Notes: generated from the sequence alone by a model not told the origin. 64,000 nt of DNA from a virus (IMGVR_UViG_3300030419_007010:97728-161727); one strand, 5' to 3'; numbered from the stretch's first letter, positions 36,083 through 57,460 are shown. A program made the numbers and translations.

Positions 36083-38038
36083 CTATAAGCTTTTGAAAGG
36101 AAATTCTACTTTTGCTACTTTTCCTAATGTTTTGTTCCAATTCTCTTTTGAATCTATTAGCCATTGTTTAAGAGCATCTAAGCTGCGTGCTGAAGCTTCT
36201 TGACCAGTTCTTAATCCTTCATTTCGAAGTTCAAAATCTAATTTGTTCTGTGCGGGCGTCCAAAGATTTTTTGCATTTTGTATGGGCTGGTAACCGAGTC
36301 TGTCTCGTGGCGCGTCTTTTTCATCTTCTATAAATTGCATAATATACCATAATTTTCGTTGCTTATATTCATATATTGCCATGGCGAACATTCGCTTGGT
36401 ACTGTACCCTCCAAGAGTTCCTGCCTCATATTGACTTCGAAGATATTGGTCGACATTTGCAAACTCTTGACCTCTCATATGAATCGATATAGCATTAGCT
36501 ATATATTCTAATTCTTTTTTATTTGGATTTCTTCCAATTAATTCATTAAAGGCTTTTTTGATATAAGGTACAGCTTGTCTAGTGTATTTATGCATTTCTC
36601 TTCGCTTAACATGAACAAAGGACATCTTATTGTCAAAAGTTTTAATATGATCTACTGCGGTTGCACTAAAGAACACTGCCTGCATAGGTTCTGCATGGTG
36701 AATCATACCTTTACCTGTATAATCCGATACCCCATCGACGCCGATTGCTCGGAGAGTCTTTGCCCAAGCTTTCATATCATTAGTTTTTTGTTTGGTGTAA
36801 CTTCTTGTAATATTCCATAATATTCCCAAAGGAGTCTTAAAACTGGAGGCTTCGGTAGCTAGCTGTACAGCGGGGCTCATTTTAATTGTTTGTATAGTTC
36901 CGGATTTATTATCTTTAATGCCTAGATGTTTTTTCCATTGTTCTGCAGTAAAATATCCCCATCTATTCCCAGTACCTATTGCATTACTAATACCCAAAGA
37001 CGGATAATCCGGATTCTTTTTTAATGCTTCTTGTGATTTTTGTTTTAGAAAATCCCACGCGTACATTACTGCTTTTGCATGATTTAAATTAAATCCTGGC
37101 TCCTTTATTACGCCTTCTGGATATTTTTCACTAGCTCTCTGTAAAGTTCGTACTGAATCGATTTCAGGATCATAACCTACTTTTTTATGTACTGCATCAA
37201 CGTGCTGTTGAGTAGCATCAAATTGACCTTTGACGGCGTAGCTAGCTACCCATCTTATCATATTACTAAAATAATCTAGACGCGTATAGTGGCTAGCGGC
37301 ATACTTAAAATATTTTTTTATCTCTTCAAATGCATCTTTTAAATTAGGATCTGATACTTGGCTTTCTAAAAAATACTCATCATCTTTTTTACTCAAAAGT
37401 CGTCTTAAATCATCAATAGCATCAAGTTCCTGTTCGACGTGCCCTTTTTGTACTTGTTTTTTAAATTTTCCAAATTCTTCGTACATGTAGGGCGCTTGTT
37501 CAAGATAACTGTCTATCTCTCCGTCCGGAGTTCTCCTAGCCATTCTTTTTGTAAGTTTTTTACCTACAGGTTCAGAAAATAACTTTATTAATTTTTCGTT
37601 TAAGTCTTGCTCTGTGAACTGATCATTATATAAAATTTCTGCTTCTTTTTTTGGCTTTACTATATGAAGAAATTTTCTTTCAGAAGCAAAAGGTATTTTT
37701 CCCTTTTCAAGCTGGGTGAGGATTTCTTCATTAACAGGATAAAAGTAGATTCCCATTGGAGTCTCCCAAGGAGATTTTGGATTGATGCCGACAATATTAA
37801 TATCAGCAAAGTGCATATAATGGGTTGGCTTTTGACCTGACGGAACAGAATACTTTTTAAGATTATCCAACATAGTCGGAAGCTGGATTCCACGTTTTTT
37901 AGCAGCAGTAGCTTCTTCAATATCAGATTCTAATTCTTTTAAGATATTAGAAACACTAGTATTTTTGCTCTCAACAATATTTTCTTTTTCATTGCGAGCG
38001 GATCCAAGAAAATTACGCCATTTATCTTCTAATTTCAT
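36083..38038 (-). CDS. large leader-tagged protein with possible split ADP-ribosyltransferase-like fold
   Basis: N-terminal MKLEDKWRNFL; YMHF, GIYFYP and EPMQAVFF resemble ART-PolyVal-type motifs (by eye). Confidence 0.5.
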   Translation of the reverse strand: MKLEDKWRNFLGSARNEKENIVESKNTSVSNILKELESDIEEATAAKKRGIQLPTMLDNLKKYSVPSGQKPTHYMHFADINIVGINPKSPWETPMGIYFYPVNEEILTQLEKGKIPFASERKFLHIVKPKKEAEILYNDQFTEQDLNEKLIKLFSEPVGKKLTKRMARRTPDGEIDSYLEQAPYMYEEFGKFKKQVQKGHVEQELDAIDDLRRLLSKKDDEYFLESQVSDPNLKDAFEEIKKYFKYAASHYTRLDYFSNMIRWVASYAVKGQFDATQQHVDAVHKKVGYDPEIDSVRTLQRASEKYPEGVIKEPGFNLNHAKAVMYAWDFLKQKSQEALKKNPDYPSLGISNAIGTGNRWGYFTAEQWKKHLGIKDNKSGTIQTIKMSPAVQLATEASSFKTPLGILWNITRSYTKQKTNDMKAWAKTLRAIGVDGVSDYTGKGMIHHAEPMQAVFFSATAVDHIKTFDNKMSFVHVKRREMHKYTRQAVPYIKKAFNELIGRNPNKKELEYIANAISIHMRGQEFANVDQYLRSQYEAGTLGGYSTKRMFAMAIYEYKQRKLWYIMQFIEDEKDAPRDRLGYQPIQNAKNLWTPAQNKLDFELRNEGLRTGQEASARSLDALKQWLIDSKENWNKTLGKVAKVEFPFKSL

Positions 38039-38053
38039 GTTATTAAATAGTAA

Positions 38054-38587
38054 TTAAATATCTATATCAGCCAGTATTCGATTAATTTCTTTAATCATTT
38101 TAGTATGTTTAAAAGTCCAACCTTCATATAAGGCACCTTCATGGTCTGGATCTCCTAAAATATTCCCGCTATTCCATAAAGCAACATGAACTAACTCGTG
38201 AATTAAAGAAGTAGAAGCTATTCTTTCATATCTCGTTTTATGAATTTTTATATAAGTTGGGGATAAGGCCAAGCCTTTTGCTTTTCCTCTTTTAATTTTG
38301 CCATCCATAGAATAACCTAACATGCTTTTTTGTTTGTCAGATACCCATTCTATCATTAATTTGTTTAAGGCTTTATGTACTTTTTTGTTTCTGTCTCCAA
38401 ACTCTTCACACCATTTCTTATAAAATAGTTTTATAGCAATAGAGACGTTTTTTGGATGAGGCCATGTATTTTTTTCTTGAATCTGCCATGCACTTTCATA
38501 GTCTGGTATCTTGCTCATCTGGGTTGCTGTGGGAATTCCTGCGCAGCCCGTTATAAAGAAAGACAACAGTAGTACTACTAATCTCAC
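38054..38587 (-). CDS. lipoprotein with HExxH zincin motif
   Basis: FITGC lipobox; IHELVH ... DH. Confidence 0.7.
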   Translation of the reverse strand: MRLVVLLLSFFITGCAGIPTATQMSKIPDYESAWQIQEKNTWPHPKNVSIAIKLFYKKWCEEFGDRNKKVHKALNKLMIEWVSDKQKSMLGYSMDGKIKRGKAKGLALSPTYIKIHKTRYERIASTSLIHELVHVALWNSGNILGDPDHEGALYEGWTFKHTKMIKEINRILADIDI

Positions 38588-39477
38588 GACATAGGTCGCC
38601 TCATTTGCATGTCTTGCTTTTGAATTTGCAGATATACCTTCTTTCTAAACTTGTTTAATTCTTCTTGATTATTTTTTAGTACGTCTGCATAATCCCTTAC
38701 AACACCTGATATCTCTGGATATCTTTCTAAATCAACAGGATTCATCTTTCTAATCACCTGGAGCGCTTTTCTAGCTGAATACTTATCTAGGAGTTGTTCT
38801 GCTGCTTCGTGGGCATACGCGTCGATTTCTCCGTGTCTGGTAAGATATAGTTCTCTTTCGTCAGGTGTATCTTCTTCTGGAGGGTCTTCTCCACATATTT
38901 CACGATATCTATCAGGATCTCCTGCTGGAACTTGTTTTGTATCACATACCATTTCTCGATATGCTTCATAATCAGAAAGGCCTTTTGAACTCGCTTGTTT
39001 TTTTAATTGATAATAGTGGATTAATTCATGATTTAAAGTTGTGGATATTTCCTTTGATAATTCGCGAGGATTCAAATCATCAAAATTAAAATCTTCAGAA
39101 ATAGAACGCAGTTCCAACCATATAACATGTTGTCCGTCTAATTCTTGATAAGGTCCTCTATATTGTCCTCGTAAAATCCAATTATTTGGATATGAACCAA
39201 ATTCATCCGATGGGCTTAAGGCATATACTTCATCACCAGCAGAAACGTTAAAATATATATTTGATACTTTATTAAGTGAATTTTGAAGTGTTTCAGTGGC
39301 AGGAGTTCCCATCATATTATCTAAACCGTCTTCTTTCAAGTCGATATCTTCGGGATTATTTGATTGAGTCCAAAAAGTAGAATCAACAATTGCTTGAAAA
39401 ATAGCGTCTTTTAATTCTGTTTCTAAAGATGTAACTTCATTTACGTACTTCCGCCAGTTTTCAAGTAGGAGTTTCAT
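38584..39477 (-). CDS. leader-tagged zinc metallopeptidase-like protein
   Basis: MKLLLENWRKYVNE leader; HELIH and EIDAYA. Confidence 0.7.
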   Translation of the reverse strand: MKLLLENWRKYVNEVTSLETELKDAIFQAIVDSTFWTQSNNPEDIDLKEDGLDNMMGTPATETLQNSLNKVSNIYFNVSAGDEVYALSPSDEFGSYPNNWILRGQYRGPYQELDGQHVIWLELRSISEDFNFDDLNPRELSKEISTTLNHELIHYYQLKKQASSKGLSDYEAYREMVCDTKQVPAGDPDRYREICGEDPPEEDTPDERELYLTRHGEIDAYAHEAAEQLLDKYSARKALQVIRKMNPVDLERYPEISGVVRDYADVLKNNQEELNKFRKKVYLQIQKQDMQMRRPMS

Positions 39478-39941
39478 TAAAATTGCTTCCCTACTACTAA
39501 ATATTCATCACCCTTAAGAAACGAAGGGTCTATACCGGCATTAGTAAGAACATTAAAAACAAAACTACCACAATTCTCAGATCTTTTTTCAGGATGGTCC
39601 ATTCTACAAATAATTCCATCGGGAACATCAACTGTTTGTGACAATTTCATAGTTTTATAAATACCCATTTTAGCAGCTTCTTCTGGAGAGTTTGGAACTG
39701 ACTTTACATTTTGCCAGAACTTCTCGTCTTTCATAATGTCTTTCCAAGTACTTATAACTGGTTCTACAAGCTCGCCGCGGTGGCCCGACATATCTTTCAT
39801 ACTACCATTTGGTAAAACGAAGCCTACGTGGTCCCATTTATTATTCTTAATACCCCAGGCAGACTTCATAAAAAATAATGTATTAGAAACATCTTTATTT
39901 TCATTTAAATACTTTCGCCAGTTTTCAAATAGTATTTTCAT
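39477..39941 (-). CDS. leader-tagged permuted papain-like (NlpC/P60-like) protein
   Basis: MKILFENWRKYLNE leader; WDHVGF precedes NCGSFV (His-before-Cys order). Confidence 0.6.
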   Translation of the reverse strand: MKILFENWRKYLNENKDVSNTLFFMKSAWGIKNNKWDHVGFVLPNGSMKDMSGHRGELVEPVISTWKDIMKDEKFWQNVKSVPNSPEEAAKMGIYKTMKLSQTVDVPDGIICRMDHPEKRSENCGSFVFNVLTNAGIDPSFLKGDEYLVVGKQF

Positions 39942-40477
39942 GTTGTGCTTCTGTATACTTGTTTAAAAAGTTGTTGTACAGCAGGGTCACCTTTGTAGTG
40001 TAGATCTAAAGCAACTTTTAGCTGATCCAGATCTTTAAGTTTTTCGTCTCTTGGTAAACTTTCGTAAGGCTTAAACAACGCTGGGTTGTCTTTTTTTTGC
40101 CACGAGTTATGCTTCATCCAAACTTCATGGAATTTAGAAGCTAAACTGTTAATATCTTCAGCTGATTTAATTGGCATGCTCTCAACAACTTTTGCATAAT
40201 CAACAGCAGGGCCGCCATTTAATAATTGATTAAGAGATGGCACAATTTTATCTGCAGTCTGATTAATATTCTGATAGGCAACACCATCCTCTATTTTTAT
40301 TCCCTCATAGCCTTTGAGTTGTTCTGCAGTTGGCTTGCCAGGAATTTGTTTAAATTTAGGATCATTTCCTTTTTTTCTTCTATGGTCTTTCAGCCATTGG
40401 GTATGCATTTTATCTGTCATTTGTTTAGCTAATGACTCATTTAGATATTGGCGCCAATTTTCAAATAAGTTTTTCAT
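39938..40477 (-). CDS. leader-tagged RyR-domain-like protein
   Basis: MKNLFENWRQYLNE leader; HEVWM...NPALFKPYESLPRDEKLKD matches the RyR repeat pattern. Confidence 0.65.
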   Translation of the reverse strand: MKNLFENWRQYLNESLAKQMTDKMHTQWLKDHRRKKGNDPKFKQIPGKPTAEQLKGYEGIKIEDGVAYQNINQTADKIVPSLNQLLNGGPAVDYAKVVESMPIKSAEDINSLASKFHEVWMKHNSWQKKDNPALFKPYESLPRDEKLKDLDQLKVALDLHYKGDPAVQQLFKQVYRSTT

Positions 40478-40481
40478 TTAT

Positions 40482-41279
40482 CTATTTTCCTGTTACAAAA
40501 TAATATCCAGCCGCGGCTAATTTATTTCGGTCTGTGATAGGCTTATTATTTGCATCTGTTAAATCTCCTCCTGGAAATGCTGTAATTGGAGATATTAATA
40601 ATTTTCCATCAGATACTTTTCCTATAATCCCAGCAATAAAACTCATATTTTGAGTATCTTTACCTTCACCAGATGTTATAGCTACCCTCTCAATTTGATA
40701 AGCTTTTGAATTAGATTCTGGAGTCCAAATAGGAATTTTCAACAAGTCTTCTCCTTGTTGAGCCAATTTAGCACCTTCTTCAGTTGTAACAATTGCTCCT
40801 TTTTTTTGTTCTCCGGGGATATATTGTTGATTTCGAAATTCTGTTACAGAAGTGTGTTTTTTCATTTTAGCTACTTCTTCGGGAGAAGCTTTTTTTACAT
40901 TTGCAGTACCAACTGGTATTCCGGCCGGCAAATCTAACCATTTAATTCTTGTAGGGTCACTCGTATCATTAGGATTATTTTTAGATACCAATGATATAAT
41001 CGCCTTTTGAAAATCTACGTTCGGTGAAAATTTGGATCCTGGTTGGGAATTTGGACCCTTAACATGTCTTGATTTAATGTGATCAAAATTATCCCTAGTA
41101 CCGATTATATAATAATTTCCAGCAGGAGATATAGTATTTTTATCTGCTTTGACTTTTCCTCTTATATATTTATTTAATTCATTATCTGGATTATCAATAA
41201 TTTGTTGAATTTCTTCAAAAGGAACTTGTCCAACCTCTTCATTTACATATTGGCGCCAGGATTCAAATAAGTTTTTCAT
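40482..41279 (-). CDS. leader-tagged putative toxin-type RNase (EndoU-like)
   Basis: MKNLFESWRQYVNE leader; DHIKSRH, GSKF, ITAFP. Confidence 0.5.
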   Translation of the reverse strand: MKNLFESWRQYVNEEVGQVPFEEIQQIIDNPDNELNKYIRGKVKADKNTISPAGNYYIIGTRDNFDHIKSRHVKGPNSQPGSKFSPNVDFQKAIISLVSKNNPNDTSDPTRIKWLDLPAGIPVGTANVKKASPEEVAKMKKHTSVTEFRNQQYIPGEQKKGAIVTTEEGAKLAQQGEDLLKIPIWTPESNSKAYQIERVAITSGEGKDTQNMSFIAGIIGKVSDGKLLISPITAFPGGDLTDANNKPITDRNKLAAAGYYFVTGK

Positions 41280-41443
41280 TTCTTGTTTTGCCTCGCTATT
41301 TTTTTAACTTGCTTTTGTAGTTTTGTTACTTCAGTTTCTAGACTATCTAATCTACTTTGTGTTGTATAATAAAATCCACCTAAAGTGGCAGCAATCGTTA
41401 AAAGGGTAATAAGGGTCTTAATATCTATATTTTCTAACTTCAT
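41276..41443 (-). CDS. 55-aa single-TM plus coiled-coil protein
   Basis: Not in track; MKLENIDIKTLITLLTIAATLGGFYYTTQSRLDSLETEVTKLQKQVKKIARQNKK. Confidence 0.65.
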   Translation of the reverse strand: MKLENIDIKTLITLLTIAATLGGFYYTTQSRLDSLETEVTKLQKQVKKIARQNKK

Positions 41444-41445
41444 GT

Positions 41446-41874
41446 TTAATCCTCGTTAGTAAATATTTCACTACCCTTGAAGTTTTCTGCTTTTTCTTCT
41501 CTCGAAAAAGTTCTAATAACGCCGGCCTTCTTTTCTAAAATATAAATTATTTCTAGAGGTTGGAATCCAACAATTATTTTTCCTTTGACAATGAAAAGGG
41601 GAACTGCGCTAAGACGGCCTTTATAGCCTATCGATTTAGCATACTTTACTAACTGTTCGTAATCATTATCGTTTTCAAAGTCTTTTTCAATATAATGAAT
41701 TTCATTGTCTTTAAGAAACTCTTTAGCTTTGTCGCACCACGAACACCATGAAGTCGAATATAAAACTACAACATCATCATTTAATGAAACAGTTTCTTTT
41801 TTAATTTCAGTGGTTGCACAAGACATACAAGATAGTAAGAAGACACAAGATAATAATATTAATAGATATTTCAT
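41446..41874 (-). CDS. glutaredoxin/NrdH-like lipoprotein
   Basis: Lipobox-like Cys; YSTSWCSWC, AVP, IVGF. Confidence 0.85.
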   Translation of the reverse strand: MKYLLILLSCVFLLSCMSCATTEIKKETVSLNDDVVVLYSTSWCSWCDKAKEFLKDNEIHYIEKDFENDNDYEQLVKYAKSIGYKGRLSAVPLFIVKGKIIVGFQPLEIIYILEKKAGVIRTFSREEKAENFKGSEIFTNED

Positions 41875-41938
41875 TTATTTTTCCCTATTTTCTACTTCAT
41901 AAATTATGCTAATAATAATACATGCGATGATTATTAAC

Positions 41939-42187
41939 TTAATCTCCACCGTAGGTTTTCCAAAGCTCTACTATCTCTTCATATTGCTTTCTAGCGTCGT
42001 AATCTACTTTACTTAAGGATTTATCTAGATGTAAAGGTTGTTTTTCTTCATCTTCTTTTTTCCAAATAAGTCTTAAAACTTCTAGAATATGTTCTTTGTC
42101 TAGTTCGTCATGGGTCTCGTTAAGATTTCTTCTTGCTTCTTTCCAAGTTAACTTATCTTTTTGTAAATCTACGCATATTAGACACAT
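41939..42187 (-). CDS. hypothetical protein (N-terminal CxxC)
   Basis: MCLIC; GGAG SD. Confidence 0.65.
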   Translation of the reverse strand: MCLICVDLQKDKLTWKEARRNLNETHDELDKEHILEVLRLIWKKEDEEKQPLHLDKSLSKVDYDARKQYEEIVELWKTYGGD

Positions 42188-42205: not shown

Positions 42206-43099
42206 CTATCGGCCAGACTCGGACAGAGCGTCGTTCCAGAGTCGATAATGTGTATCCCAGGTTGATACCACCTCGCCGCGTACATTTTGAATTTCCACAG
42301 GACCATATTGTTGTATATATCCTTGAGCGAGTGCGTGGTCTTTTGCATCATCTATGTTAGCAAATGGTTCAGAGTATAATTTTGTGGCTCTGTATCTTCC
42401 GTCTGGCGGAGCCCACAAAGTAAATTCACCCATCGTTGGTCGCACATGATAATTTGGCATTTCCTTTAGCGTATTTTGCAGTTCTTCTTGAACAATTTGT
42501 TTTAGCTTTGATTCATCCAATGATCGTACCCAATCGAGCCCGCTACCGGGTTTGATGGCGTCTATATCCGAGCGTCTTTTTTGCCAATTATCTATCCTCG
42601 ATTGATCCCAGTTGCGGGGTTCCCAGGCATAACGGAGGCGGTGGGCCCTTGGTGGGTGTTCTGGGTGGGTACGACCTTCAGGATTTTTTTCATCCTTTTT
42701 TGTTCCTACTTGTCTTAAAAACCTCGCAAGATCGGGGTGCTCGCTCCGGACCTTTTTGAGTATTCTTGTCATTTCATCACTTACAGTGTTAAATTTTCTA
42801 GCTGTGGCGCCCAACTTTTCTTTTCCAAAATTTCTTTTATCTGGTCCTTCTGGCATAGCTGCATGTTCTTTTTCCAGTTCTTTTAACTCTAATGAAAGTT
42901 TTTGAAATTCTTTTATTCTTTCTATTAATCCTGGTTCATTTTCCAAAATATTGTTATACCTTTCTAACTCTTGGCTCTGCTTTTTTAACTTTCGGCCCTG
43001 ACGCCATTTATTAAATTTGTTTTTTATAGTTTCTTCTTTTAACACGCTTTGTAGTTCTTCTTCAATAATTTGTTTTAGTTTTGATTGGGTTAGTTTCAT
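42206..43099 (-). CDS. leader-tagged protein with a second internal leader copy
   Basis: MKLTQSKLKQIIEEELQSVLKE and internal ESKLKQIVQEELQNTLKE. Confidence 0.75.
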   Translation of the reverse strand: MKLTQSKLKQIIEEELQSVLKEETIKNKFNKWRQGRKLKKQSQELERYNNILENEPGLIERIKEFQKLSLELKELEKEHAAMPEGPDKRNFGKEKLGATARKFNTVSDEMTRILKKVRSEHPDLARFLRQVGTKKDEKNPEGRTHPEHPPRAHRLRYAWEPRNWDQSRIDNWQKRRSDIDAIKPGSGLDWVRSLDESKLKQIVQEELQNTLKEMPNYHVRPTMGEFTLWAPPDGRYRATKLYSEPFANIDDAKDHALAQGYIQQYGPVEIQNVRGEVVSTWDTHYRLWNDALSESGR

Positions 43100-43100
43100 G

Positions 43101-43448
43101 TTATTCTTCATATTTTACTCCTCCGGGAAGTGTTTTTGGTAGAGGTCGACCTAGAGTAGATAATATTTCATCTGCAGCTTTCTGATCTGCAGCATCCAAA
43201 ATTTCTTTTAACATCCTAACGGCCTCTTCTAGACCATCGTGAAGGATTTGTTCAGCTAGATCTTCTGCGCCTCGTTCGTAATCTGTAAGAGATCTAGATG
43301 TGCCAAGGTTCTGGACACTCATATTAGTACTCTCCAAAACACTTTCTAGAATATCAAATATTTTTTTAAGAGGATCAGAAGACTCATGTTCTAATACACT
43401 CATTTCTTCTTTTATAATCTGCTTTAGTTGTGATTTAGTTAGTTTCAC
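43101..43448 (-). CDS. leader-tagged helical protein
   Basis: GTG start, MKLTKSQLKQIIKEE. Confidence 0.75.
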   Translation of the reverse strand: MKLTKSQLKQIIKEEMSVLEHESSDPLKKIFDILESVLESTNMSVQNLGTSRSLTDYERGAEDLAEQILHDGLEEAVRMLKEILDAADQKAADEILSTLGRPLPKTLPGGVKYEE

Positions 43449-43804
43449 GTAAATGCTCCTACGTTTTGTGCCTGATAACCTTTCTTCAGCGCCCAGGCCT
43501 CAACGAAATAATGCGCGATGCCGTTGCGGATCATCGCCTTGGCTGCGTCGGCGGCATCTACTGCGCCGGCGTGATCTGAAAAATTAAATTGCTCAACGTC
43601 ACCATCTGCGAACGTAATCGTTTGACCATTCATCTGTTCAAGCATTTCTTCAAATGTGGTTGTTATCCCACCGATTTTTACAAATGGCCCACCATCGTCT
43701 TCATCATCAATAACGTTATATGTAAAGGTGCCGGCCTGCTCATTCAATACTTTCGCGAGTTCTTCTTTTATAATCTGTTTCAGTTGTGATTTGGTTAGTT
43801 TCAT
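43445..43804 (-). CDS. leader-tagged protein
   Basis: MKLTKSQLKQIIKEELAKVLNE. Confidence 0.75.
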   Translation of the reverse strand: MKLTKSQLKQIIKEELAKVLNEQAGTFTYNVIDDEDDGGPFVKIGGITTTFEEMLEQMNGQTITFADGDVEQFNFSDHAGAVDAADAAKAMIRNGIAHYFVEAWALKKGYQAQNVGAFT

Positions 43805-44058
43805 AGTTCAACGTCCTCGATGTCTAATTCTCTCATACTAGATAATACTCTTTGTACCACATCAGTAAGTCTTTCATATTTAGGATCAAAAGCATTGTGG
43901 ATAGATTCATGTTCTTCGTCTGTTAAAGCGGTTGGATGCCAATCTCCATTATACCAAATCATGATTTCTGCTTCGGGATCAAGAGTTTGAGCAGATAAAG
44001 CATGCTCATTTAAAAAATATCTTGGGTCAATACGTTTTTTATTTTTTTTTGATATCAT
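43801..44058 (-). CDS. hypothetical protein, leader variant
   Basis: KNKKRIDPRYFLNE N-terminus. Confidence 0.65.
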   Translation of the reverse strand: MISKKNKKRIDPRYFLNEHALSAQTLDPEAEIMIWYNGDWHPTALTDEEHESIHNAFDPKYERLTDVVQRVLSSMRELDIEDVEL

Positions 44059-46487
44059 TTTAAATATTTTCTCCAGGAATCAAATAAAATCTTATCTGTA
44101 ACTAGTTTATTTTGTTGGTTTTCTTCCATAACACTATCTATCACTCCCATTGTTTCTTCGGGAGTTGGCATGCCGGGTCTCCAACCACTAGGATCTTCTT
44201 GAGCGCCAGAAGCCGGCTTAAATAGTTGTGGCTCTTCTTCCATTGCCAGCTTGCCAAATTTTGCTGCAGCGTCTAGAGTTTGGTCTATAAGTATTTTATA
44301 AACTTCGTTTAAATACCTGTCTAAATACTTTGCAAACTGAATTGTGTCTTTAATTTGATCCAAATCGTCTGTCATTTTTATTTTCATATGGATGGTAGCC
44401 TTTAGGGCGGGACTCGGAGACACTTGAATATCAGGAGATAAAATCTCAACCTCAATATTTTTATATGGTATTGTATCCCAAGCTCTATCTTCTAAAAGCT
44501 TCATTTGTCGATCTTTTTGTTGATCTAGTTGTACGAATAGATCAATTGTTTTACGTAGCCAATCTTTTAAGAAGTCTGTATAGGGGCTACGAATATTCTG
44601 TTCAATTCTCTTTGTATATCTGGAGAGAAATGTTTTTTGTACTATTGACACTGCGCCCTGCTCACGTTGGTGTTGCTCACGAGTATCTTCTAACTTATCG
44701 TAATTTAAAGCTTTTAATAAGCCAGTGAGTGGTAAATCAAATTTAGGAGTGAAAAGATGGATGATACCTTTTTCAAATTTTGTATTTAGATTCTTAAATT
44801 GTTCTAGCTCGTCAAACATTTGCTTTCTAGCGTCATATTTTTCAGATTTTATGTAGCCCATATTTCCTAATTCTTCAATTGCTTTTTCTAAAATCTGAGG
44901 ATGTTTTTTATCGTATTCAGCTATTCTATTAAGAAATACTTTAAATTGGGTTACACCTTCGTGCTCATCGTGGTCTGGTTCAAATCTAACTCTAATAGTT
45001 TCTTCATAATCATTAATTTCTACTTCAACTTCATCAGGATATATACCTAGGTCATCCATCGCATCTTTGAATATATCAGTTAGTTGATCTTCATAATCAG
45101 ATGCCATTGGATTTCCATCGCCTGTATCAATCCATGGAAGGTCTTCCGGAAGATCGATTGATGTATAGGCATTCCAAATCCAGCGATGTCCACCCCAATC
45201 CCGAGGATCTTGAACATCTACATCAATATATTCAAAAGAGTGCTCGTGATCTCTTAGCGCAACTTCGAAATCTTCTGAGTCCGGACCGGCTGGATTTTCA
45301 CCTTCGTGCTCGCGAGCTACATACAAACAATCATGGGCGGCGGATTCGAATATTCTCTGTAGTACCTCTAATACTTCTTCAACATCATTAGGATCTTCTA
45401 TAGTTTCGTCATATTCTTCACCAAAATCTCTCACTAGTGTTTTGACAAGAGTCTGAACGTCTTCTGGTACGTCATCGCCCATTTCCAGATCCCTATTGAG
45501 TGTACTAAGTGTTTTTTCTGGGTTAGATACAGCACCTCCTGCTAACACATACTCCATATTTCTATAAAAATCAGAATGGTCAATATCTTTATTGTCTCTA
45601 TTATTAATATTAATAACGTCTTGATCTAAAACTGTTAGCGCTTGTAAGGAAGCATCATCACTCTTAGGTAAAAATTTACTAATAACATAATAAAAGGATT
45701 TACCTTCGTCTGTATATTTTGTATACCATTCTTCATGACCATCATAGCCCTCTACATTACAATTTCCTCTTGCAATACACCAACTTGTGGCTCCTCGTGC
45801 TCCACCTAGATGGGCTGCAGCCTCAACAGAATATGGACGAGCTAATACAAAATAATCATTTTCAATAAGAACTTCAACATCTTCAAGAGCTTTCATTTTT
45901 TCGCCTCTCTTCTTTTGGCGCTTTGAAAACCCTAGTTCTTTAGTTACAGATATAAGATCATCTAAACTTTTGTAGGAATTGATGTCTTTGTTTTTAATTC
46001 TTTGAATGTTTTTGTGGAACTCTGCAATTTCATCGCCAATTTTTATAGCGTGATTAAAAAGCTCAACAAAGAATTCATCTTGGGGATTAGGCTCGTCTTT
46101 GGCCGGCCACGCGATGTTGACGCCTAGTGGCCCCTTTAACTGCTTATCTAGTTCTGCAGCTAGCTGTTTAGTCATCCACATAAGATACTTATTGTTTTTA
46201 GAGGGATCTAAATTAGCTAGACGGTCTACAAATCGATTAACTTGAGGATATTTTTTCTCTGCGTCCTCTTTACGACCTTCCGCAATAAGGGCTATTTCTT
46301 CTTCAGTTAAAGTATCTTCTTCAGCTAAGAATCCGCCTCGTCGACCAGTTGCTGAATCTGTAGAACTAGCATAACCATCAAATCCAATAGTTTCTCTTTT
46401 GGATTCATATCTAGAACTTTGATGACCAGGGCCCGGGCGTTGATTCTCAGTAAGAAAACTTCTCCATTTATTAACAAAGTCACTCAT
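44055..46487 (-). CDS. large acidic protein with W-R leader motif at both ends
   Basis: MSDFVNKWRSFLTE ... KILFDSWRKYLK; DPSKNNKYLMW and TSWCI motifs. Confidence 0.7.
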   Translation of the reverse strand: MSDFVNKWRSFLTENQRPGPGHQSSRYESKRETIGFDGYASSTDSATGRRGGFLAEEDTLTEEEIALIAEGRKEDAEKKYPQVNRFVDRLANLDPSKNNKYLMWMTKQLAAELDKQLKGPLGVNIAWPAKDEPNPQDEFFVELFNHAIKIGDEIAEFHKNIQRIKNKDINSYKSLDDLISVTKELGFSKRQKKRGEKMKALEDVEVLIENDYFVLARPYSVEAAAHLGGARGATSWCIARGNCNVEGYDGHEEWYTKYTDEGKSFYYVISKFLPKSDDASLQALTVLDQDVININNRDNKDIDHSDFYRNMEYVLAGGAVSNPEKTLSTLNRDLEMGDDVPEDVQTLVKTLVRDFGEEYDETIEDPNDVEEVLEVLQRIFESAAHDCLYVAREHEGENPAGPDSEDFEVALRDHEHSFEYIDVDVQDPRDWGGHRWIWNAYTSIDLPEDLPWIDTGDGNPMASDYEDQLTDIFKDAMDDLGIYPDEVEVEINDYEETIRVRFEPDHDEHEGVTQFKVFLNRIAEYDKKHPQILEKAIEELGNMGYIKSEKYDARKQMFDELEQFKNLNTKFEKGIIHLFTPKFDLPLTGLLKALNYDKLEDTREQHQREQGAVSIVQKTFLSRYTKRIEQNIRSPYTDFLKDWLRKTIDLFVQLDQQKDRQMKLLEDRAWDTIPYKNIEVEILSPDIQVSPSPALKATIHMKIKMTDDLDQIKDTIQFAKYLDRYLNEVYKILIDQTLDAAAKFGKLAMEEEPQLFKPASGAQEDPSGWRPGMPTPEETMGVIDSVMEENQQNKLVTDKILFDSWRKYLK

Positions 46488-51244: not shown

Positions 51245-52357
51245 TTACTTAATCCACTTTTTCATAAGAGCATCATAAAGTCGCTCTTCTTTAAGTTGTT
51301 CGAAGGTTTTTTTCTCGCCTCTCGCATGCCCGGATCCAGGATATGTCTCTCCGGGAAATTTCCCGCCGACGTCACGTACCGGCGCGGGTTCCTTTCTCCG
51401 CCCACCATGTTTCCTCATGCAGTCTTCGTGCGCTCCGAGCAACATGCCGGTGCTTATTTGCTCATGATTCGGGTCGTCTTTAACGGCCTGCTGCAGCTGG
51501 TTCCATGTGTCCGCACATGGATCCGAATCTTCTTCCAATTCTTCGGCCTCTTCCAAGGGCTTTTGACGATCGGCCGGCTTATCCTTGCCTCTACGATCCT
51601 CTGAATTGCCTCTACGGCGCTCCTCAAGGCTTTCCTCTTCCTCGACGACCTCTTCCCCTTCGGAGACGTCTTCCTCTTCTTCTAGCGGCTGTACACGGTC
51701 TGGCTCTTTCTCCTCCGCGCGCCGGCCGGGTCGCCTACGTCGTTCTTCAAGCTCTTCGCTTTCAGCTAGCCGTGTTTCTTGAGCCCATTCTTCGTGTGAT
51801 TGTCCGGAATGGACTTCATCACATTGTGTTGGCTCGTGTGTATGCACGGTTAAACCAGAAGCAGAGCCTTCCATTAATTTTGCTTTCAAAGCTTCTCTGA
51901 TTGCTTTTCTTAATGTTTGTTCATTCATTGTTTTTTTCCTTGATTTGGATTTGATTCCATCTTCCCAATCTCTTATAAGTAGATTTCCTTCTAAATAAGC
52001 TTCTTTCTCCATCATTCTTAAATGTTCGTCTTTTTGTGCGTAACCTTCTTCTGTTACATGATCTCCTTCAAATTCACCTCTACAATTCTGATTATGATGA
52101 ACTAATTCGTGAGAAAAAGATCTTAATATGTCCTTTGGATGTCTCTTATCAATATAAATAGATATCTCATTTGCATTTGGATCATAATAAGCTGTTTTTC
52201 CTAAAGGATTCGAAGCATTATGAGGATCTGAAACAAAAGAAAGCGCCACTGGCCTGTTAAAACCAAGGCGCTTTTGTGCATAGGGAAAAAATTTATTTAC
52301 TAACTCATGTACTTCTTGCAAACTCTCATTTGTCTTATTTGTTATTTTTAAGCTCAT
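51245..52357 (-). CDS. HExxH metallopeptidase domain plus charged repetitive tail
   Basis: DILRSFSHELVHH, EKEAY; internal MNEQTLRKAIREAL; LEERRR...PLEE repeats. Confidence 0.75.
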   Translation of the reverse strand: MSLKITNKTNESLQEVHELVNKFFPYAQKRLGFNRPVALSFVSDPHNASNPLGKTAYYDPNANEISIYIDKRHPKDILRSFSHELVHHNQNCRGEFEGDHVTEEGYAQKDEHLRMMEKEAYLEGNLLIRDWEDGIKSKSRKKTMNEQTLRKAIREALKAKLMEGSASGLTVHTHEPTQCDEVHSGQSHEEWAQETRLAESEELEERRRRPGRRAEEKEPDRVQPLEEEEDVSEGEEVVEEEESLEERRRGNSEDRRGKDKPADRQKPLEEAEELEEDSDPCADTWNQLQQAVKDDPNHEQISTGMLLGAHEDCMRKHGGRRKEPAPVRDVGGKFPGETYPGSGHARGEKKTFEQLKEERLYDALMKKWIK

Positions 52358-53300
52358 TTTTAATAAGTCTTTTTAACTTTTCCTCTGATAGAGTAATTGT
52401 TTCTTCTAGTTGGCCGGCCACCGTGGACTTTGTACCAATAGTTCCCTTTTTATATCCCCCTAAACCACCGGTCGGGGCTTTTGTAGCACGAGCTTTCTCA
52501 ACACCGCCTCTAGGTTTACGATCTTTAGCTAAACCAACAGGTGTTTCTGGATCGGTTGCTGACATTGCAACATCACCGATTTCACCAGCTTCTGGAGCAG
52601 CAGAAGGATCAATTGCTACAGACAACTCCTTTAGTTTGCCTCCAGTGCCACCAACACCAGCTAATTCGGATAATTTATCCATATAACCGTTATGTATACT
52701 AATCCAATTAACTAATTCTGCAGCTGCTCTATACACAGCATCTGCCGTTTCACCTGTAGCTACAGCTTCTGTTACGGGTTTTCCTTCTGCGTCTTCCATA
52801 CCTTCAGGAGGCCCGGTGACGACATCATCTTCGTTATCAGGTTGTAGGCCCTGGGCTCTTAATTCGGGCTCATCTTCTACAGATAACATATCTGCCAAAC
52901 GATTAAGAGAAGTGGGATCAATAGCTACCGCTTTAAGCTTAGTTTGTAATTTATCATTTGCCTGTCTAACTTTAATTTCATATTCAGCAAAAACATCTGC
53001 TAACTGAGCCATGGTAGGGGCAACCCTTTTTAAAGCTTTTTGTCCCGCAACTTCTTTTTGTTCCGGCGATGCTTCTTCTGCAGTATCAAGCGCGGCATCA
53101 AGCATTCGATTAGCCTTCGAAGCTTTTGCGAGAGTGATCCATTTTCTTAGTCCTGTTTTTGCACCAAGCTTAATTGATTGGAACACATCAGCAATATCTT
53201 CTTCAAGCATTCTTATGTGTTCTTCAGAGAGAACTTCTTTGCTTTCTTCTAATATAACTTCTTCTACAAGCTTTTTTAGCTGCGCTTTAGTTAGTTTCAT
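52335..53300 (-). CDS. leader-tagged protein (motif at both ends)
   Basis: MKLTKAQLKKLVEEVILEE ... LSEEKLKRLIKNEL. Confidence 0.72.
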   Translation of the reverse strand: MKLTKAQLKKLVEEVILEESKEVLSEEHIRMLEEDIADVFQSIKLGAKTGLRKWITLAKASKANRMLDAALDTAEEASPEQKEVAGQKALKRVAPTMAQLADVFAEYEIKVRQANDKLQTKLKAVAIDPTSLNRLADMLSVEDEPELRAQGLQPDNEDDVVTGPPEGMEDAEGKPVTEAVATGETADAVYRAAAELVNWISIHNGYMDKLSELAGVGGTGGKLKELSVAIDPSAAPEAGEIGDVAMSATDPETPVGLAKDRKPRGGVEKARATKAPTGGLGGYKKGTIGTKSTVAGQLEETITLSEEKLKRLIKNELKNNK

Positions 53301-53494
53301 CGTTTTTTCCTCTTATTAGATGGGTTATCATAGATAAACACCAATGATTTTCAATATATAATTATCTTCATATATGCTTAATAGCCGTTTTTTAATGCTA
53401 TAAAGTGACTTATTTTTTACCAAAAAAAGCCAAAAAATGCTGTTTTTTCTCTAAAAATCCTTGAAAATAGGCTATTTTTAGCCATATTTTGGGT

Positions 53495-54484
53495 TTATTC
53501 GGCTGGTGGAGCCGATTTTGAACGCTTAAAAGGCGGTTTTTTGCTAAAAGGTGCCTTATTTCCTTGCTTTCCGAGTGAAATTGTCTGTTTTTTAGCTTCT
53601 TCGTGGTCTTTTTTGACCAATTCTTGGTATTTTCCCGCTTCTTCAAGCGAAAAATCGGCTTTTTCTTGCGTTTTTTTGTTATTTTCAACGAATTTACGCC
53701 AATTTTTGCTAAATTCTTCCTTTAAAGACATCATTGCGTCATAAGAATCGGTAAAAAGGTCAGATAATCGCTGCAAATAGCCATTTCGACGCAAAACTTT
53801 GAATGCTAGGTTCTCTTCAGAGAAGATTCCACCCTTTTGAAGCCCACATCTTCTGAATTTTCTTATCTTTTCCTTGATTTTCTTCGAGAAATCATGAGAA
53901 TCATCGTATTTTTGGTGATTAAACAGCTTTTCGACCCCATCAATGAGGCTCATGAGCTTCGAAGCCTTCTTTTTAACGTCCATATAGTTAATTTCAGGCT
54001 CATTGTGAAGCGGTTCTGCTACCCATTGGTTATTTAACACCGAATAAACACCCATAGATATATGAGGTTCTTTAGAATCCTGTATATATATCTCCACTTC
54101 ATACCCGTGAATTAGGATATTGTGTTTCTTATTCCAATTTATAATCTTTTCTTTGAATAAATCTTGCAATAATTCGGTATTTTCATGAATTTTTTCGAAA
54201 TCAAGCAAGATATGAAGGTCAACATCCGAAAAACTAGACCAATTATAGCTTGCAAGCGAACCAGTAAGCAAAATATCGTCCAAAATTACTTCTTTATTGA
54301 ATAAATCAGATAAACCTAGGTCATCAAAGAACTTATTTGATATTTCTAACAGCTTTTCGCGGACTTCAGGGTCCATTAACTTGTTTTGCCATATTTCAGG
54401 CGCTAGATCATCCTGCATTTCGAGATTTGTTACGTCAATCTCTCTATGATCATCTAAAAATTCTTGCCAAAGTTGCAAATTCAT
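53495..54484 (-). CDS. Pol-beta superfamily nucleotidyltransferase
   Basis: LTGSLASYNWSSFSDVDLH, EVEIYIQD, ENLAFKVLRRNG. Confidence 0.85.
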   Translation of the reverse strand: MNLQLWQEFLDDHREIDVTNLEMQDDLAPEIWQNKLMDPEVREKLLEISNKFFDDLGLSDLFNKEVILDDILLTGSLASYNWSSFSDVDLHILLDFEKIHENTELLQDLFKEKIINWNKKHNILIHGYEVEIYIQDSKEPHISMGVYSVLNNQWVAEPLHNEPEINYMDVKKKASKLMSLIDGVEKLFNHQKYDDSHDFSKKIKEKIRKFRRCGLQKGGIFSEENLAFKVLRRNGYLQRLSDLFTDSYDAMMSLKEEFSKNWRKFVENNKKTQEKADFSLEEAGKYQELVKKDHEEAKKQTISLGKQGNKAPFSKKPPFKRSKSAPPAE

Positions 54485-54495
54485 ACAATAATTAC

Positions 54496-56448: not shown

Positions 56449-56716
56449 CGAAGTTAAAGAAAAATTTATCAGTATCTCTTATATTAACTTCTTCCATTGT
56501 ATTCCAAAGTTTAGCCAACGTCCTTCCAGCTTCTATATCTGTATCAAAGTGTTTTTTTAAAAAATGTTTATCTTCTACCAAAACTGCAAAATATGCACGA
56601 ATCTTCCATTTGAATTTATTTGTTAATTCAACACATCCAACTGGATCATCATTATTCTTTCCAACAATCCGAACTTCCGTGGTTGTATGAGAAAGCTTCT
56701 TCCAACTTATTTTCAT
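56423..56716 (-). CDS. hypothetical protein
   Basis: ORF track. Confidence 0.6.
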   Translation of the reverse strand: MKISWKKLSHTTTEVRIVGKNNDDPVGCVELTNKFKWKIRAYFAVLVEDKHFLKKHFDTDIEAGRTLAKLWNTMEEVNIRDTDKFFFNFDDLFGPID

Positions 56717-56919
56717 TCAAGGAAACTCTCGTTTATATGATTACATTCGCTACATTTAAATAACTGTATTGGTGCCATTATTTCTTCTCCTGTCGGAGAA
56801 ATTACTGGGGATATTCTTTTTATTCTATAAATTTGTACAAAATACTTGCTTTTGCACTCATCGCATTCAACATCGCCGGCATCGCGCAAGTTGAAGCTAA
56901 CATTACCTTGTTGTTGCAT
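56713..56919 (-). CDS. Zn-ribbon protein
   Basis: CDEC ... CSEC; GAGG SD. Confidence 0.7.
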   Translation of the reverse strand: MQQQGNVSFNLRDAGDVECDECKSKYFVQIYRIKRISPVISPTGEEIMAPIQLFKCSECNHINESFLE

Positions 56920-56998
56920 CTTAACCTCTATTAGTAATTAATCATCAAAAATTTAAATTCTTGAATAATTTTATTTTATCACACTTTAAGCGCGAGGT

Positions 56999-57460
56999 TC
57001 AGAACCACACGACAGTTTTGAATTGAATTAACTTTCCGAAAAAATTTTCTATTATTTTTTTATCATTTTCTTTGCAAACACCGTCAGCGCCGAGGATAAT
57101 TTTTGTATTTTGGCCAATATTCTTCGGTTTGGCCTTACCGACGTTTTCCCATGTCTCGTCATCGTCTTTATACTTAATATAACCAACCGGCAGCAAATTT
57201 TTCTGTTTTCCGGACGATGAAGGCACGATAATCAGGTCCCAGCCCATGTCATCAGCAGGATTAATGAGTTTTGGCCACTCTCCATAATCAAACTCAAGTT
57301 TGACCTTTTTCAAACCGCCGAATTTTTTCGTTTTTCCTTTTGGAGTGTCGATATTGATTTCTTGATTCGGATTTGCGCGAATAATATCAATTAGTTCTTT
57401 TTGTGTTGGAATTACCTGTTCGATCAAAAATTTTTCCCAACTTTCCAATATTTTTTTCAT
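56999..57460 (-). CDS. leader-tagged inorganic pyrophosphatase-like protein
   Basis: MKKILESWEKFLIE; IDTPKG, DYG, ADDMGWD, TKIILG. Confidence 0.6.
   Translation of the reverse strand: MKKILESWEKFLIEQVIPTQKELIDIIRANPNQEINIDTPKGKTKKFGGLKKVKLEFDYGEWPKLINPADDMGWDLIIVPSSSGKQKNLLPVGYIKYKDDDETWENVGKAKPKNIGQNTKIILGADGVCKENDKKIIENFFGKLIQFKTVVWF

What the first reader, a model, noticed from the sequence alone, without database searches (positions are those of the whole stretch)
36083..57460. Modular leader-tag/cargo system: unrelated effector domains share short Glu-terminated leaders (candidate capsid-targeting code)
Seen: about a dozen otherwise unrelated proteins start with one of two motifs. Class A, W-R type: MKLLLENWRKYVNE (39477), MKILFENWRKYLNE (39941), MKNLFENWRQYLNE (40477), MKNLFESWRQYVNE (41279), MSDFVNKWRSFLTE (46487), MKKILESWEKFLIE (57460), plus the weaker MKLEDKWRNFL (38038) and MNLQLWQEFL (54484). 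Class B: MKLTKSQLKQIIKEE (43448, 43804), MKLTQSKLKQIIEEE (43099), MKLTKAQLKKLVEE (53300). Most end in [L/I/V]-x-E, and similarity stops after that Glu. Established: T4 internal proteins use a ~10-aa capsid-targeting sequence removed by the gp21 prohead protease after [L/I]-x-E, and are ejected with the DNA. Inference: this is an expanded two-class packaging code that loads a diverse set of effectors (zincin, papain-like, RNase-like, RyR, PPase-like, NTase, ART-like) into the virion for immediate delivery to the host.
Basis: partly seen in the sequence, partly recalled or inferred. Interest (0 to 1): 0.88.

Follow-up and report, generated by a model that had tools for sequence, protein, structure and literature searches.

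The report
Capsid-loading leader tags on phage proteins
An uncultured marine T4-like phage puts one of two 14-residue starting tags, built like the phage T4 "load me into the head" signal and ending at its head protease's cutting motif, on at least 15 unrelated proteins; this probably loads enzymes into the capsid for injection with the DNA, though neither cutting nor packaging has been measured.

Summary
A blind clustering of all N-termini in the 161.7-kb genome recovers exactly two leader families that are not explained by homology. Class A (MKxLxExWRxYxNE) has 6 members. Class B (MKxTKSQLKQIIKEE) has 9, of which 4 are in the window and 5 outside.

The cargo parts show no similarity to each other.

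Both classes obey one rule: hydrophobic at residues 8, 11 and 12, and Glu at 14. This is the T4 propeptide heptad (IPIII, gp24, Alt) moved 4 residues along. Thirteen genes fit it; 0.4 are expected by chance.

The genome encodes a T4 gp21-type (S77) prohead protease. Its capsid protein keeps the T4 L-x-E|A maturation site.

In IMG/VR both tags sit only at N-termini, on about 40 (A) and about 140 (B) cargo families. All 12 near-complete tagged records carry the protease. The same cargo family occurs with different tags.

A cultured relative, Flavobacterium phage immuto, has similar tags.

Cutting and packaging are untested. This is a new variant of the T4 capsid-targeting system.

The scan has already noted the same system, on this genome and on others.

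The parts
38584..39477 (-). Class A tagged gene, 297 aa. Leader MKLLLENWRKYVNE at 39436-39477. Cargo has an HELIH motif.
   Evidence: HMM A E=9e-5. Register-14 rule met. Pfam BSP peptidase below threshold, E=0.017, over the HExxH region. 74%-identical orthologue with the same leader in L068.
39477..39941 (-). Class A tagged gene, 154 aa. Leader MKILFENWRKYLNE at 39900-39941.
   Evidence: HMM A E=1.4e-5. Orthologues carry inserts of 8-28 residues directly after the leader. In the AF2 model, residues 1-10 have pLDDT below 50. The best fold matches are all permuted papain-like/NlpC-P60 proteins, but only at Z 2.5-4.4.
39938..40477 (-). Class A tagged gene, 179 aa. Leader MKNLFENWRQYLNE at 40436-40477.
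   Evidence: HMM A E=1.6e-5. The ESM Atlas points to RyR-domain clusters at score 0.75-0.81, a lead only. No Pfam hit.
40482..41279 (-). Class A tagged gene, 265 aa. Leader MKNLFESWRQYVNE at 41238-41279. Cargo resembles bacterial RNase toxin domains.
   Evidence: HMM A E=2.2e-5. AF2 pLDDT 84; the leader forms helix 2-14 at low confidence and is detached from the domain. VIA matches at Z 5.7-7.0 to YxiD, MafB, CdiA-CT and BrnT RNase toxins. Homologues carry leader classes A, C or D.
44055..46487 (-). Class A tagged gene, 810 aa. Leader MSDFVNKWRSFLTE at 46446-46487. A second class-A-like motif lies at its C-terminus.
   Evidence: HMM A E=6e-4 at the N-terminus. The best non-N-terminal hit in the genome (E=0.06) is ILFDSWRKYLK at its C-terminus. 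CTA[TCA]TTA motif 14 nt upstream. 25% identity to the class A protein in L012.
44058..44093 (-). Leader-like relic or C-terminal copy (KILFDSWRKYLK, then stop). The next ORF (43801-44058) contains RYFLNE.
   Evidence: Read directly from the sequence; meaning not settled.
56999..57460 (-). Class A tagged gene, 153 aa. Leader MKKILESWEKFLIE at 57419-57460.
   Evidence: HMM A E=3e-4. Register-14 rule met. No Pfam hit.
42206..43099 (-). Class B tagged gene, 297 aa. Leader MKLTQSKLKQIIEEE. An internal second copy, SKLKQIVQEE, lies near residue 200.
   Evidence: HMM B E=2.7e-4 at the N-terminus and E=0.87 for the internal copy.
43101..43448 (-). Class B tagged gene, 115 aa, GTG start. Leader (V/M)KLTKSQLKQIIKEE.
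   Evidence: HMM B E=2.2e-6. Leader DNA is 91% identical to that of the neighbouring gene.
43445..43804 (-). Class B tagged gene, 119 aa. Leader MKLTKSQLKQIIKEE followed by LAKVLNE.
   Evidence: HMM B E=1.9e-6. A second hydrophobic-x-Glu site at residue 22.
52335..53300 (-). Class B tagged gene, 321 aa. Leader MKLTKAQLKKLVEE. A weak B-like motif lies at the C-terminus.
   Evidence: HMM B E=2.5e-4. Register-14 rule met.
36083..38038 (-). Doubtful class A member, 651 aa (MKLEDKWRNFLG...).
   Evidence: Joins class A only at the soft threshold. No Glu at residue 14. CTA[TCA]TTA motif 12 nt upstream.
53495..54484 (-). Doubtful class A member, 329 aa (MNLQLWQEFLDD...). Cargo resembles a nucleotidyltransferase.
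   Evidence: Soft threshold only. Pfam Polbeta E=0.0034 and NTP_transf_2 E=0.0054, both below their cut-offs.

Best explanation
The two leaders are T4-type capsid-targeting propeptides.

Proposed mechanism:
1. Each leader is a short N-terminal amphipathic helix with hydrophobic residues at positions 8, 11 and 12.
2. The helix docks the newly made protein onto the scaffold core of the assembling prohead.
3. The phage's gp21-family (S77) protease then cuts after Glu14. Class B may also be cut after a second Glu near residue 22.
4. This frees the cargo inside the head, and it leaves with the DNA at infection.

Because the tag is a self-contained module, any gene placed behind it gains packaging. 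This would explain the very diverse and fast-changing cargo.

Shown here: the tags, their fixed register, their restriction to N-termini of phage proteins, their exchange between cargo families, the protease gene, and the conserved capsid maturation site.

Inferred: binding to the core, cleavage, packaging and delivery.
For: 1. Tags and register. Thirteen genes match hydrophobic-x-x-hydrophobic-[LIVM]-x-E ending exactly at residue 14, against 0.40 expected, and none end at other registers in excess. With two corrected starts this makes 15 genes.

2. Same heptad as T4. The T4 record shows it ending at residue 10: IPII/IPIII MKTYQEFIAE, gp24 MAKINELLRE and Alt MELITELFDE. PMC9026906 reports that gp21 cuts after L/I-X-E. 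It also reports that residues 4 and 7 of the IPIII CTS govern targeting, and residues 8 and 10 govern processing. Those four T4 positions correspond to residues 8, 11, 12 and 14 here.

3. Protease. Pfam Peptidase_S77 E=1.3e-31 and PHROG head maturation protease E=6e-59. It is 33% identical to T4 gp21 across the GELxHP and SSRGLGS stretches, which I take from my own knowledge of gp21 to hold the catalytic His and Ser.

4. Capsid maturation site. The major capsid protein aligns to T4 gp23 so that T4's cut site LTE65|A falls on LKE59|A here.

5. Position in other viral contigs. For class A, more than 92 stretches match, and the Met lies exactly 5 residues before the matched ENWR core in almost all cases. 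For class B, 154 of 179 hits have the Met exactly 6 residues before the matched QLKQ core.

6. Virus-specific. Only 3 hits in 596 Gb of prokaryote genomes, and 2 of them are the viral cargo family on MAG contigs.

7. Selection acts on the peptide. About one third of codon pairs encoding the same amino acid differ synonymously.

8. Co-occurrence. All 12 near-complete tagged records carry the S77 protease (9/9, 3/3).

9. Link to the head gene module. In many relatives the gene slot just after the protease gene holds a tagged gene of either class, as it does in this genome (genome 37826-38914).

10. Modularity.
- One 2H-phosphoesterase-like cargo family carries leader A in two contigs and leader B in another (37% identity).
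- Homologues of the 265-aa cargo carry leaders A, C or D.
- Linker insertions fall right after the leader Glu.

11. Scaffold mimicry in relatives. The class C motif R-[FW]-x-K-LAGI occurs only at the extreme C-terminus of scaffold-position proteins (38 cases) or as an N-terminal leader (7 cases). In the cultured phage immuto the scaffold ends in WQKLAGII and a leader reads MQKLAGII.

12. Cargo is partly enzymatic: SET, NT5C, kinase, HAD, 2H-phosphoesterase, HNH and DNA methylase domains, and an RNase-toxin-like fold.

13. Possible shared promoter. CTA[TCA]TTA lies upstream of 23 genes (3.8 expected). These include the scaffold gene, probable tail and baseplate genes (assigned from position and N-terminal sequence only) and four tagged transcription units.
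Against: - No proteomic, cleavage or packaging data exist for any of these phages.
- The link with the S77 protease is confounded by descent, because all tagged records belong to T4-like lineages.
- The resemblance to the T4 CTS is a residue pattern, not alignable homology. The tag is 14 residues long, not 10.
- The resemblance of classes A and B to this phage's own scaffold or capsid termini is not significant by HMM or BLOSUM tests.
- Some cargo domains in relatives (HNH, DNA methylase) are not obvious candidates for injection.
- The four-gene class B array lies beside replication genes, not head genes.
- The function of the CTA[TCA]TTA motif is untested.
Confidence: 0.7

Rival explanations
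1. The tags do direct proteins into the prohead core, but the tagged proteins serve there as accessory scaffold or core components. They are degraded and expelled at maturation, like T4 gp67 and gp68, and are not delivered as effectors.
For: Tagged genes sit beside the protease and scaffold genes. Many class B cargoes are short, acidic and low in complexity. Some tagged proteins contain internal copies of the motif, as expected for proteins cut into several pieces.
Against: Many cargoes are folded enzyme domains: kinase, SET, NT5C, 2H phosphoesterase and an RNase-toxin-like fold. The cargo is hypervariable between relatives, which is unlike structural core parts.
Confidence: 0.1
2. The tags are recognition or docking peptides for some other partner. 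Candidates are a modifying enzyme, a chaperone, a host or phage protease acting as a degradation signal, or a replication-factory scaffold. Capsid loading would not be involved.
For: The class B array lies beside replication genes. The predicted complex with scaffold proteins gave no answer either way.
Against: There is no radical-SAM gene in this genome. The tags fit the T4 protease and targeting rule position by position. Tagged genes occupy the slot next to the head protease gene in many relatives. A sister tag class copies the scaffold C-terminus.
Confidence: 0.12
3. The conservation lies in the DNA or mRNA. The shared starts would be recombination or gene-capture sites, or translation-initiation signals, and the peptide itself would have no role.
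For: Neighbouring cassettes share 87-100% identical leader DNA. T-even internal-protein loci are known to recombine at the leader (own knowledge). A leader-like relic lies at a gene junction.
Against: Across copies the amino acids are invariant while synonymous codons vary freely. For example, Arg9 uses five codons, and Gln10, Ile12 and Glu15 are split about evenly between codons. The same peptide is kept in hundreds of distant contigs, always in frame and always at a fixed distance from the Met.
Confidence: 0.05

Closest known systems
Phage T4 capsid-targeting sequence (CTS) on internal proteins IPI, IPII and IPIII, and the N-terminal propeptides of Alt and gp24, all removed by the gp21 prohead protease
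   Same: - A short N-terminal tag on otherwise unrelated proteins.
- Hydrophobic residues at P7, P4 and P3 and Glu at P1.
- A gp21-family protease in the genome.
- The tag is a portable module.
- Cargo genes are hypervariable and often in tandem.
   Different: - The tag is 14 residues long, not 10, with no alignable sequence similarity to the T4 CTS.
- This genome has two sequence classes, and relatives have more.
- At least 15 tagged genes, against about 4-5 in T4.
- Cargoes reach 810 aa and include several enzyme families.
- Nothing has been shown experimentally.
Propeptides and ejection proteins of giant phages (phiKZ, 201phi2-1, SPN3US), cut by gp21-like proteases after S/A-X-E (PMC9026906, PMC5694885)
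   Same: Many head-packaged proteins are processed C-terminal to Glu by a diverged gp21 homologue. Large amounts of protein are injected.
   Different: In those phages the propeptides are long and are not one shared short tag, and the P3 residue is small. Here a fixed 14-residue tag with aliphatic P3 is reused.
Encapsulin cargo-loading peptides (own knowledge, not tested here)
   Same: A short conserved terminal peptide addresses diverse enzymes to the inside of an HK97-fold shell.
   Different: Encapsulins have no portal, DNA or protease, the peptide is usually C-terminal, and it is not removed. There is no homology.
C-terminal coat-binding peptides of scaffolding proteins, such as P22 gp8 (own knowledge)
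   Same: In relatives of this phage, a leader class (R-[FW/M]-Q-K-LAGI) is nearly the same peptide as the extreme C-terminus of the scaffold-position protein. This suggests that tags use a scaffold-type contact.
   Different: The link is shown for class C in other phages. For classes A and B in this genome the resemblance to scaffold or capsid termini is not significant.

Membership tests
T4-type capsid-targeting / gp21-processed N-terminal propeptide | The tag lies at the extreme N-terminus of the protein | tested here: met
   All 15 strong hits start 2-3 residues after the start codon. In IMG/VR the Met lies at a fixed distance in almost all of more than 270 copies.
T4-type capsid-targeting / gp21-processed N-terminal propeptide | Hydrophobic residues at P7 and P4 (targeting), aliphatic P3 and Glu P1 (processing), as mapped in T4 IPIII | tested here: met
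   Hydrophobic at 8, 11 and 12 and Glu at 14 in all 15 strong tags: 13 found by the scan (0.40 expected) and two with corrected starts read directly. The T4 rule is taken from PMC9026906 and from T4 sequences.
T4-type capsid-targeting / gp21-processed N-terminal propeptide | The phage encodes a gp21-family (Peptidase S77) prohead protease | tested here: met
   PF03420 E=1.3e-31; 33% identity to T4 gp21 across the GELxHP and SSRGLGS stretches, taken from own knowledge to hold the catalytic His and Ser.
T4-type capsid-targeting / gp21-processed N-terminal propeptide | The protease keeps hydrophobic-x-Glu specificity | tested here: inconclusive
   Indirect only: the capsid protein's LKE59|A aligns with the T4 gp23 site LTE65|A. 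No enzymology.
T4-type capsid-targeting / gp21-processed N-terminal propeptide | The same tag heads unrelated cargo | tested here: met
   No cargo pair is similar within the genome. There are 39 (A) and 138 (B) cargo clusters in IMG/VR, covering many Pfam families.
T4-type capsid-targeting / gp21-processed N-terminal propeptide | Ten-residue length and sequence likeness to MKTYQEFIAE | tested here: not met
   No gene fits the rule at register 10. The tags are 14 residues long and share only the heptad pattern.
T4-type capsid-targeting / gp21-processed N-terminal propeptide | The tag is removed in proheads, and the cargo is present in virions and ejected | not testable with these tools
   Needs virion proteomics or fusion experiments.
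Shared N-terminal recognition tag of a radical-SAM maturase (the rival raised by earlier scan note e1-127136) | A radical-SAM enzyme is encoded alongside the tagged genes | tested here: not met
   PF04055 has no match in the 161.7-kb record, while all 14 control genomes match. The record is 89% complete.
Sec or lipoprotein signal peptides | A hydrophobic core of 10 or more residues, with or without a lipobox | tested here: not met
   The tags are charged amphipathic peptides. True lipoprotein-like N-termini of this genome form their own separate cluster.

The most novel reading that the evidence does not exclude
T4-superfamily phages of marine and fresh waters may share an open, multi-class 'capsid address code'. 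Short N-terminal peptides would be interchangeable between cargo genes, all ending in the head protease's cutting site. At least some would be copies of the scaffold protein's own termini, so that they occupy scaffold contact sites inside the prohead. This would let a single phage load a dozen or more enzymes and toxin-like effectors, and let lineages swap hundreds of cargo families at will.
Probability: 0.4. Interest if true: 0.8.

Novelty: new variant of a known kind. Interest (0 to 1): 0.62.

Why it matters
T4's capsid-targeting sequence has so far been worked out mainly in T-even phages, where it serves three or four proteins. This finding suggests the same logic operates on a much larger scale in abundant uncultured ocean phages. 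They use different tag sequences, show tag swapping on the same cargo, and carry enzymatic and toxin-like cargoes.

If confirmed, three things follow.
- Thousands of orphan phage proteins would be identified as injected proteins, a likely reservoir of anti-defence and host-takeover functions.
- There would be a simple sequence rule for finding such proteins.
- New packaging tags would become available for loading foreign proteins into phage heads.

A cultured phage and host pair with related tags (Flavobacterium phage immuto) makes the question directly testable.

Tried and rejected
- Pfam and PHROGs on the tagged proteins gave no hit above cut-off.
- Megablast of the region, and tblastn of a 26-aa leader, against cultured phages found nothing.
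- A word-indexed protein search restricted to residues 1-40 returned only 8 close orthologues, so it did not sample leader bearers.
- Neither leader pattern (A or B), at up to 2 mismatches, nor the class C core, at up to 1 mismatch, occurs in Syn9, HTVC008M, P-SSM2, S-PM2 or immuto. My recollection that cyanophages carry these tags was wrong.
- The T4 late promoter TATAAATA is not enriched.
- BLASTP of the presumed scaffold against T4 gp22 found no similarity.
- Predicted complex of scaffold, the conserved 139-aa protein and the 154-aa tagged protein: score 0.00, no verdict. This is not evidence either way.
- Foldseek against PDB found nothing significant for either AF2 model.
- The resemblance of class A to the capsid protein's N-terminal LLEKW helix or to the scaffold C-terminus ERWRALAGIK, and of class B to the scaffold N-terminus LEQAIIDAE, is below significance by HMM and BLOSUM tests. 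I keep these only as impressions.
- Literature searches found no paper containing these motifs, and none linking capsid targeting with marine T4-like metagenomes, within the library held.

Full report
SETTING

The window is the last 64 kb of a 161,727-bp IMG/VR virus record, estimated 89% complete. Almost all genes lie on the minus strand.

The genome has a T4-type head gene module:
- portal protein, PF07230, E=2.8e-83;
- prohead protease, PF03420 Peptidase_S77, E=1.3e-31;
- major capsid protein, PF07068 Gp23, E=2e-72.

By capsid protein, the nearest cultured phages are Microcystis phage Mel-JY01, Flavobacterium phage vB_FspM_immuto and Rhodothermus phage RM378, at 40-47% identity.

THE OBSERVATION

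Regular expressions, leader HMMs and a blind all-against-all comparison of N-termini all give the same answer.
- Six genes start with class A (consensus MKxLxExWRxYxNE): window starts 39477, 39941, 40477, 41279, 46487 and 57460.
- Nine genes start with class B (MKxTKSQLKQIIKEE): window 43099, 43448, 43804 and 53300, plus five outside the window. One of those five directly follows the protease gene, and four form a tandem array at genome 54.0-55.4 kb.
- With the threshold above the maximum of three shuffles, no other non-homologous N-terminal cluster exists. The only other clusters are Rossmann-fold paralogues.
- Cargo parts have no pairwise BLASTP similarity.

THE TAGS ELSEWHERE

Degenerate DNA patterns for the cores of the two tags were scanned over IMG/VR.
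- Class A gave 92 stretches where well under one is expected by my own rough estimate.
- In almost every copy the motif lies at a fixed distance from a start codon. That is 5 residues for class A, and 6 residues for 154 of 179 class B copies.
- Residues outside the search pattern are also conserved (M1, K2, L3, L4). In class A, conservation collapses right after Glu14, from 0 to 3.3 bits of entropy. Class B fades out by residue 22, with a second hydrophobic-x-Glu site.
- Synonymous codons vary freely at invariant residues. Selection therefore acts on the peptide, although neighbouring cassettes share near-identical leader DNA.
- The 84 complete class A proteins fall into 39 cargo clusters. The 166 class B proteins fall into 138.
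- Pfam finds SET, NT5C, protein kinase, HAD, tRNA-ligase CPD, C5 DNA methylase and HNH domains among the class A cargo.
- In 596 Gb of prokaryote genomes, the class A pattern occurs 3 times. Two of these are a viral cargo family on MAG contigs.
- The strict class A and B patterns, and the class C core, are absent from Syn9, HTVC008M, P-SSM2, S-PM2 and immuto.

LINK TO THE HEAD PROTEASE

- All 12 tagged records that are at least 90% complete carry an S77 protease.
- The protease here is 33% identical to T4 gp21 across the GELxHP and SSRGLGS stretches, which I take from my own knowledge of gp21 to hold the catalytic His and Ser.
- The capsid protein aligns with T4 gp23 so that the T4 maturation site LTE65|A coincides with LKE59|A here.
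- In many relatives the variable slot directly after the protease gene holds a tagged gene of either class. It is followed by a conserved protein of about 140 aa that starts MKKxELKxxLKPLIKECIKE.

THE RULE SHARED WITH T4

The review PMC9026906 states that gp21 cuts after L/I-X-E. It states that the first ten residues of IPIII suffice for packaging. It also states that residues 4 and 7 matter for targeting, and residues 8 and 10 for processing.

Sequences read from the T4 record show the same heptad ending at residue 10. IPII and IPIII read MKTYQEFIAE, gp24 reads MAKINELLRE and Alt reads MELITELFDE.

Both leader classes here carry that heptad ending at residue 14. Class A has W8, Y/F11, L/V12 and E14. 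Class B has L8, I/L11, I/V12 and E14.

A scan for hydrophobic-x-x-hydrophobic-[LIVM]-x-E ending at residue 14 finds 13 genes, against 0.40 expected. All 13 are class A or B members, and no gene fits at register 10.

The two classes are therefore two versions of one design: the T4 heptad with four extra residues in front.

MODULARITY

- A 2H-phosphoesterase-like cargo family (two HxT motifs) carries leader A in L038 and L093, and leader B in L143, at 37% identity. A second family shows the same swap.
- Orthologues of the 154-aa and 265-aa proteins carry insertions of 8-28 residues immediately after the leader Glu.
- AF2 models place the leader as a low-confidence helix or coil, detached from a confident globular domain.
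- More distant homologues of the 265-aa cargo carry other leaders. I call them class C (...RFQKLAGIL..LNE) and class D (NFDLRKYLAE...). Each ends in hydrophobic-x-Glu.

SCAFFOLD MIMICRY IN RELATIVES

The class C core R-[FW]-x-K-LAGI occurs in only two places in all the loci held. One is the last 0-3 residues of 270-800-aa proteins (38 cases). The other is 6-11 residues after an N-terminal Met (7 cases).

The long proteins start with the coiled-coil N-terminus typical of gp22-position scaffold proteins. The matching gene in immuto lies directly upstream of the capsid gene.

This genome's own scaffold-position protein ends in ERWRALAGIK.

The cultured phage immuto, analysed blind in the same way, has three tag families:
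- 4-5 proteins starting MENFDLKKFLVEN (class D);
- two starting MKKQILSEQF[KR]RMQ[KF]LAGIITE (class C);
- four with B-like starts (MKKSQLRQIIKE...).

In immuto the scaffold ends in SRWQKLAGIIK, so the seven residues QKLAGII are shared with one of its class C leaders.

This supports the idea that such tags use scaffold-type contacts. For classes A and B in the present genome, the resemblance to scaffold or capsid termini is not statistically significant.

CARGO IN THE WINDOW

- 265-aa protein: confident AF2 model (pLDDT 84). Its best structural matches are consistently bacterial RNase toxin domains (YxiD, MafB, CdiA-CT, BrnT, RelE-like), at Z 5.7-7.0. It has an invariant H..RH motif. An ESM Atlas lead agrees. 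Support is moderate.
- 297-aa protein: HELIH motif and a peptidase hit below threshold.
- 154-aa protein: only weak matches, but all to permuted papain-like or NlpC-P60 folds (Z up to 4.4).
- 179-aa protein: an RyR-domain lead only.
- 329-aa protein: resembles a nucleotidyltransferase, but its leader is doubtful.

OTHER POINTS

- Internal or C-terminal copies of the motifs occur inside tagged proteins: the C-terminus of the 810-aa protein, residue 200 of the 297-aa protein, and residue 150 of the protein after the protease. These are the best non-N-terminal HMM hits in the genome. They could be further cut sites, second docking sites or fusion scars.
- The motif CTA[TCA]TTA occurs 46 times on the coding strand and 13 times on the other. 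It precedes 23 genes (3.8 expected). These include the scaffold gene, probable tail and baseplate genes (assigned from position and N-terminal sequence only) and four tagged transcription units. This fits shared late expression, but its function is untested. The lead came from earlier scan notes.
- There is no radical-SAM gene in the genome.

STANDING

The concept is established for T-even phages (PMC3012670, PMC9026906). I found no paper in the held library that describes these marine tags.

The scan itself has already reported the class B array of this genome, and similar tag systems in other uncultured T4-like phages.

I therefore rate this as a new variant of a known kind.

Noticed in passing
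L007:47-283 (genome 37147-37383, outside the window): A 78-aa ribosomal protein bS21 homologue (Pfam Ribosomal_S21, 27.4 bits against a cut-off of 27) lies inside the head gene module, two genes after the protease. It is conserved at that place in relatives.
   Followed up: partly
window 60001-64000: G+C jumps from about 0.36 to 0.51 in the last 4 kb of the contig. This stretch holds a sigma-70-family ORF (60159-61058; regions 2, 3 and 4 all hit weakly). It could be an acquired segment or an assembly join.
   Followed up: partly
window 35744-35914: A 56-aa ORF contains EEIKKIKSLAGL near its start. This resembles the class C leader and scaffold C-terminal motif (K-x-LAG[IL]). It is the only such case in this genome.
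   Followed up: partly
L006:12683-13777 (genome 30483-31577) and relatives: The scaffold-position protein just upstream of the capsid gene ends in a conserved peptide, [DE]RW[RKQ]xLAGIK. This is shared with many uncultured T4-like phages and with the cultured phage immuto.
   Followed up: yes
L007:296-715 (genome 37396-37815): A conserved 139-aa protein starting MKKNELKQVLKPLIKECIKE follows the protease region in every relative examined. It has two I-K-E sites and is probably a prohead core protein. It has no Pfam or PHROG hit.
   Followed up: partly
whole genome, minus strand: The motif CTA[TCA]TTA is strand-biased (46 against 13). It lies 8-90 nt upstream of 23 genes (3.8 expected), mostly virion genes and tagged units. 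It is a candidate late promoter that differs from T4's TATAAATA, which is not enriched here.
   Followed up: partly
protein P0014 (metagenomic homologue of window 40482-41279): A 404-aa form has an HD domain (PF01966) in front of a class C leader-like segment, followed by the same cargo domain. It is either a fused pair of genes or a polyprotein with an internal cut site.
   Followed up: no
window 38054-38587 and 41446-41874: Two untagged genes inside the tagged array have lipoprotein-like N-termini. The second has a glutaredoxin domain (Pfam E=8e-9).
   Followed up: no
genome 55066 and 55397 (outside the window): The first 45 nt of two adjacent class B genes are 100% identical. In the window, the starts at 43448 and 43804 are 91% identical. 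This points to recent duplication or gene conversion at the leader.
   Followed up: yes
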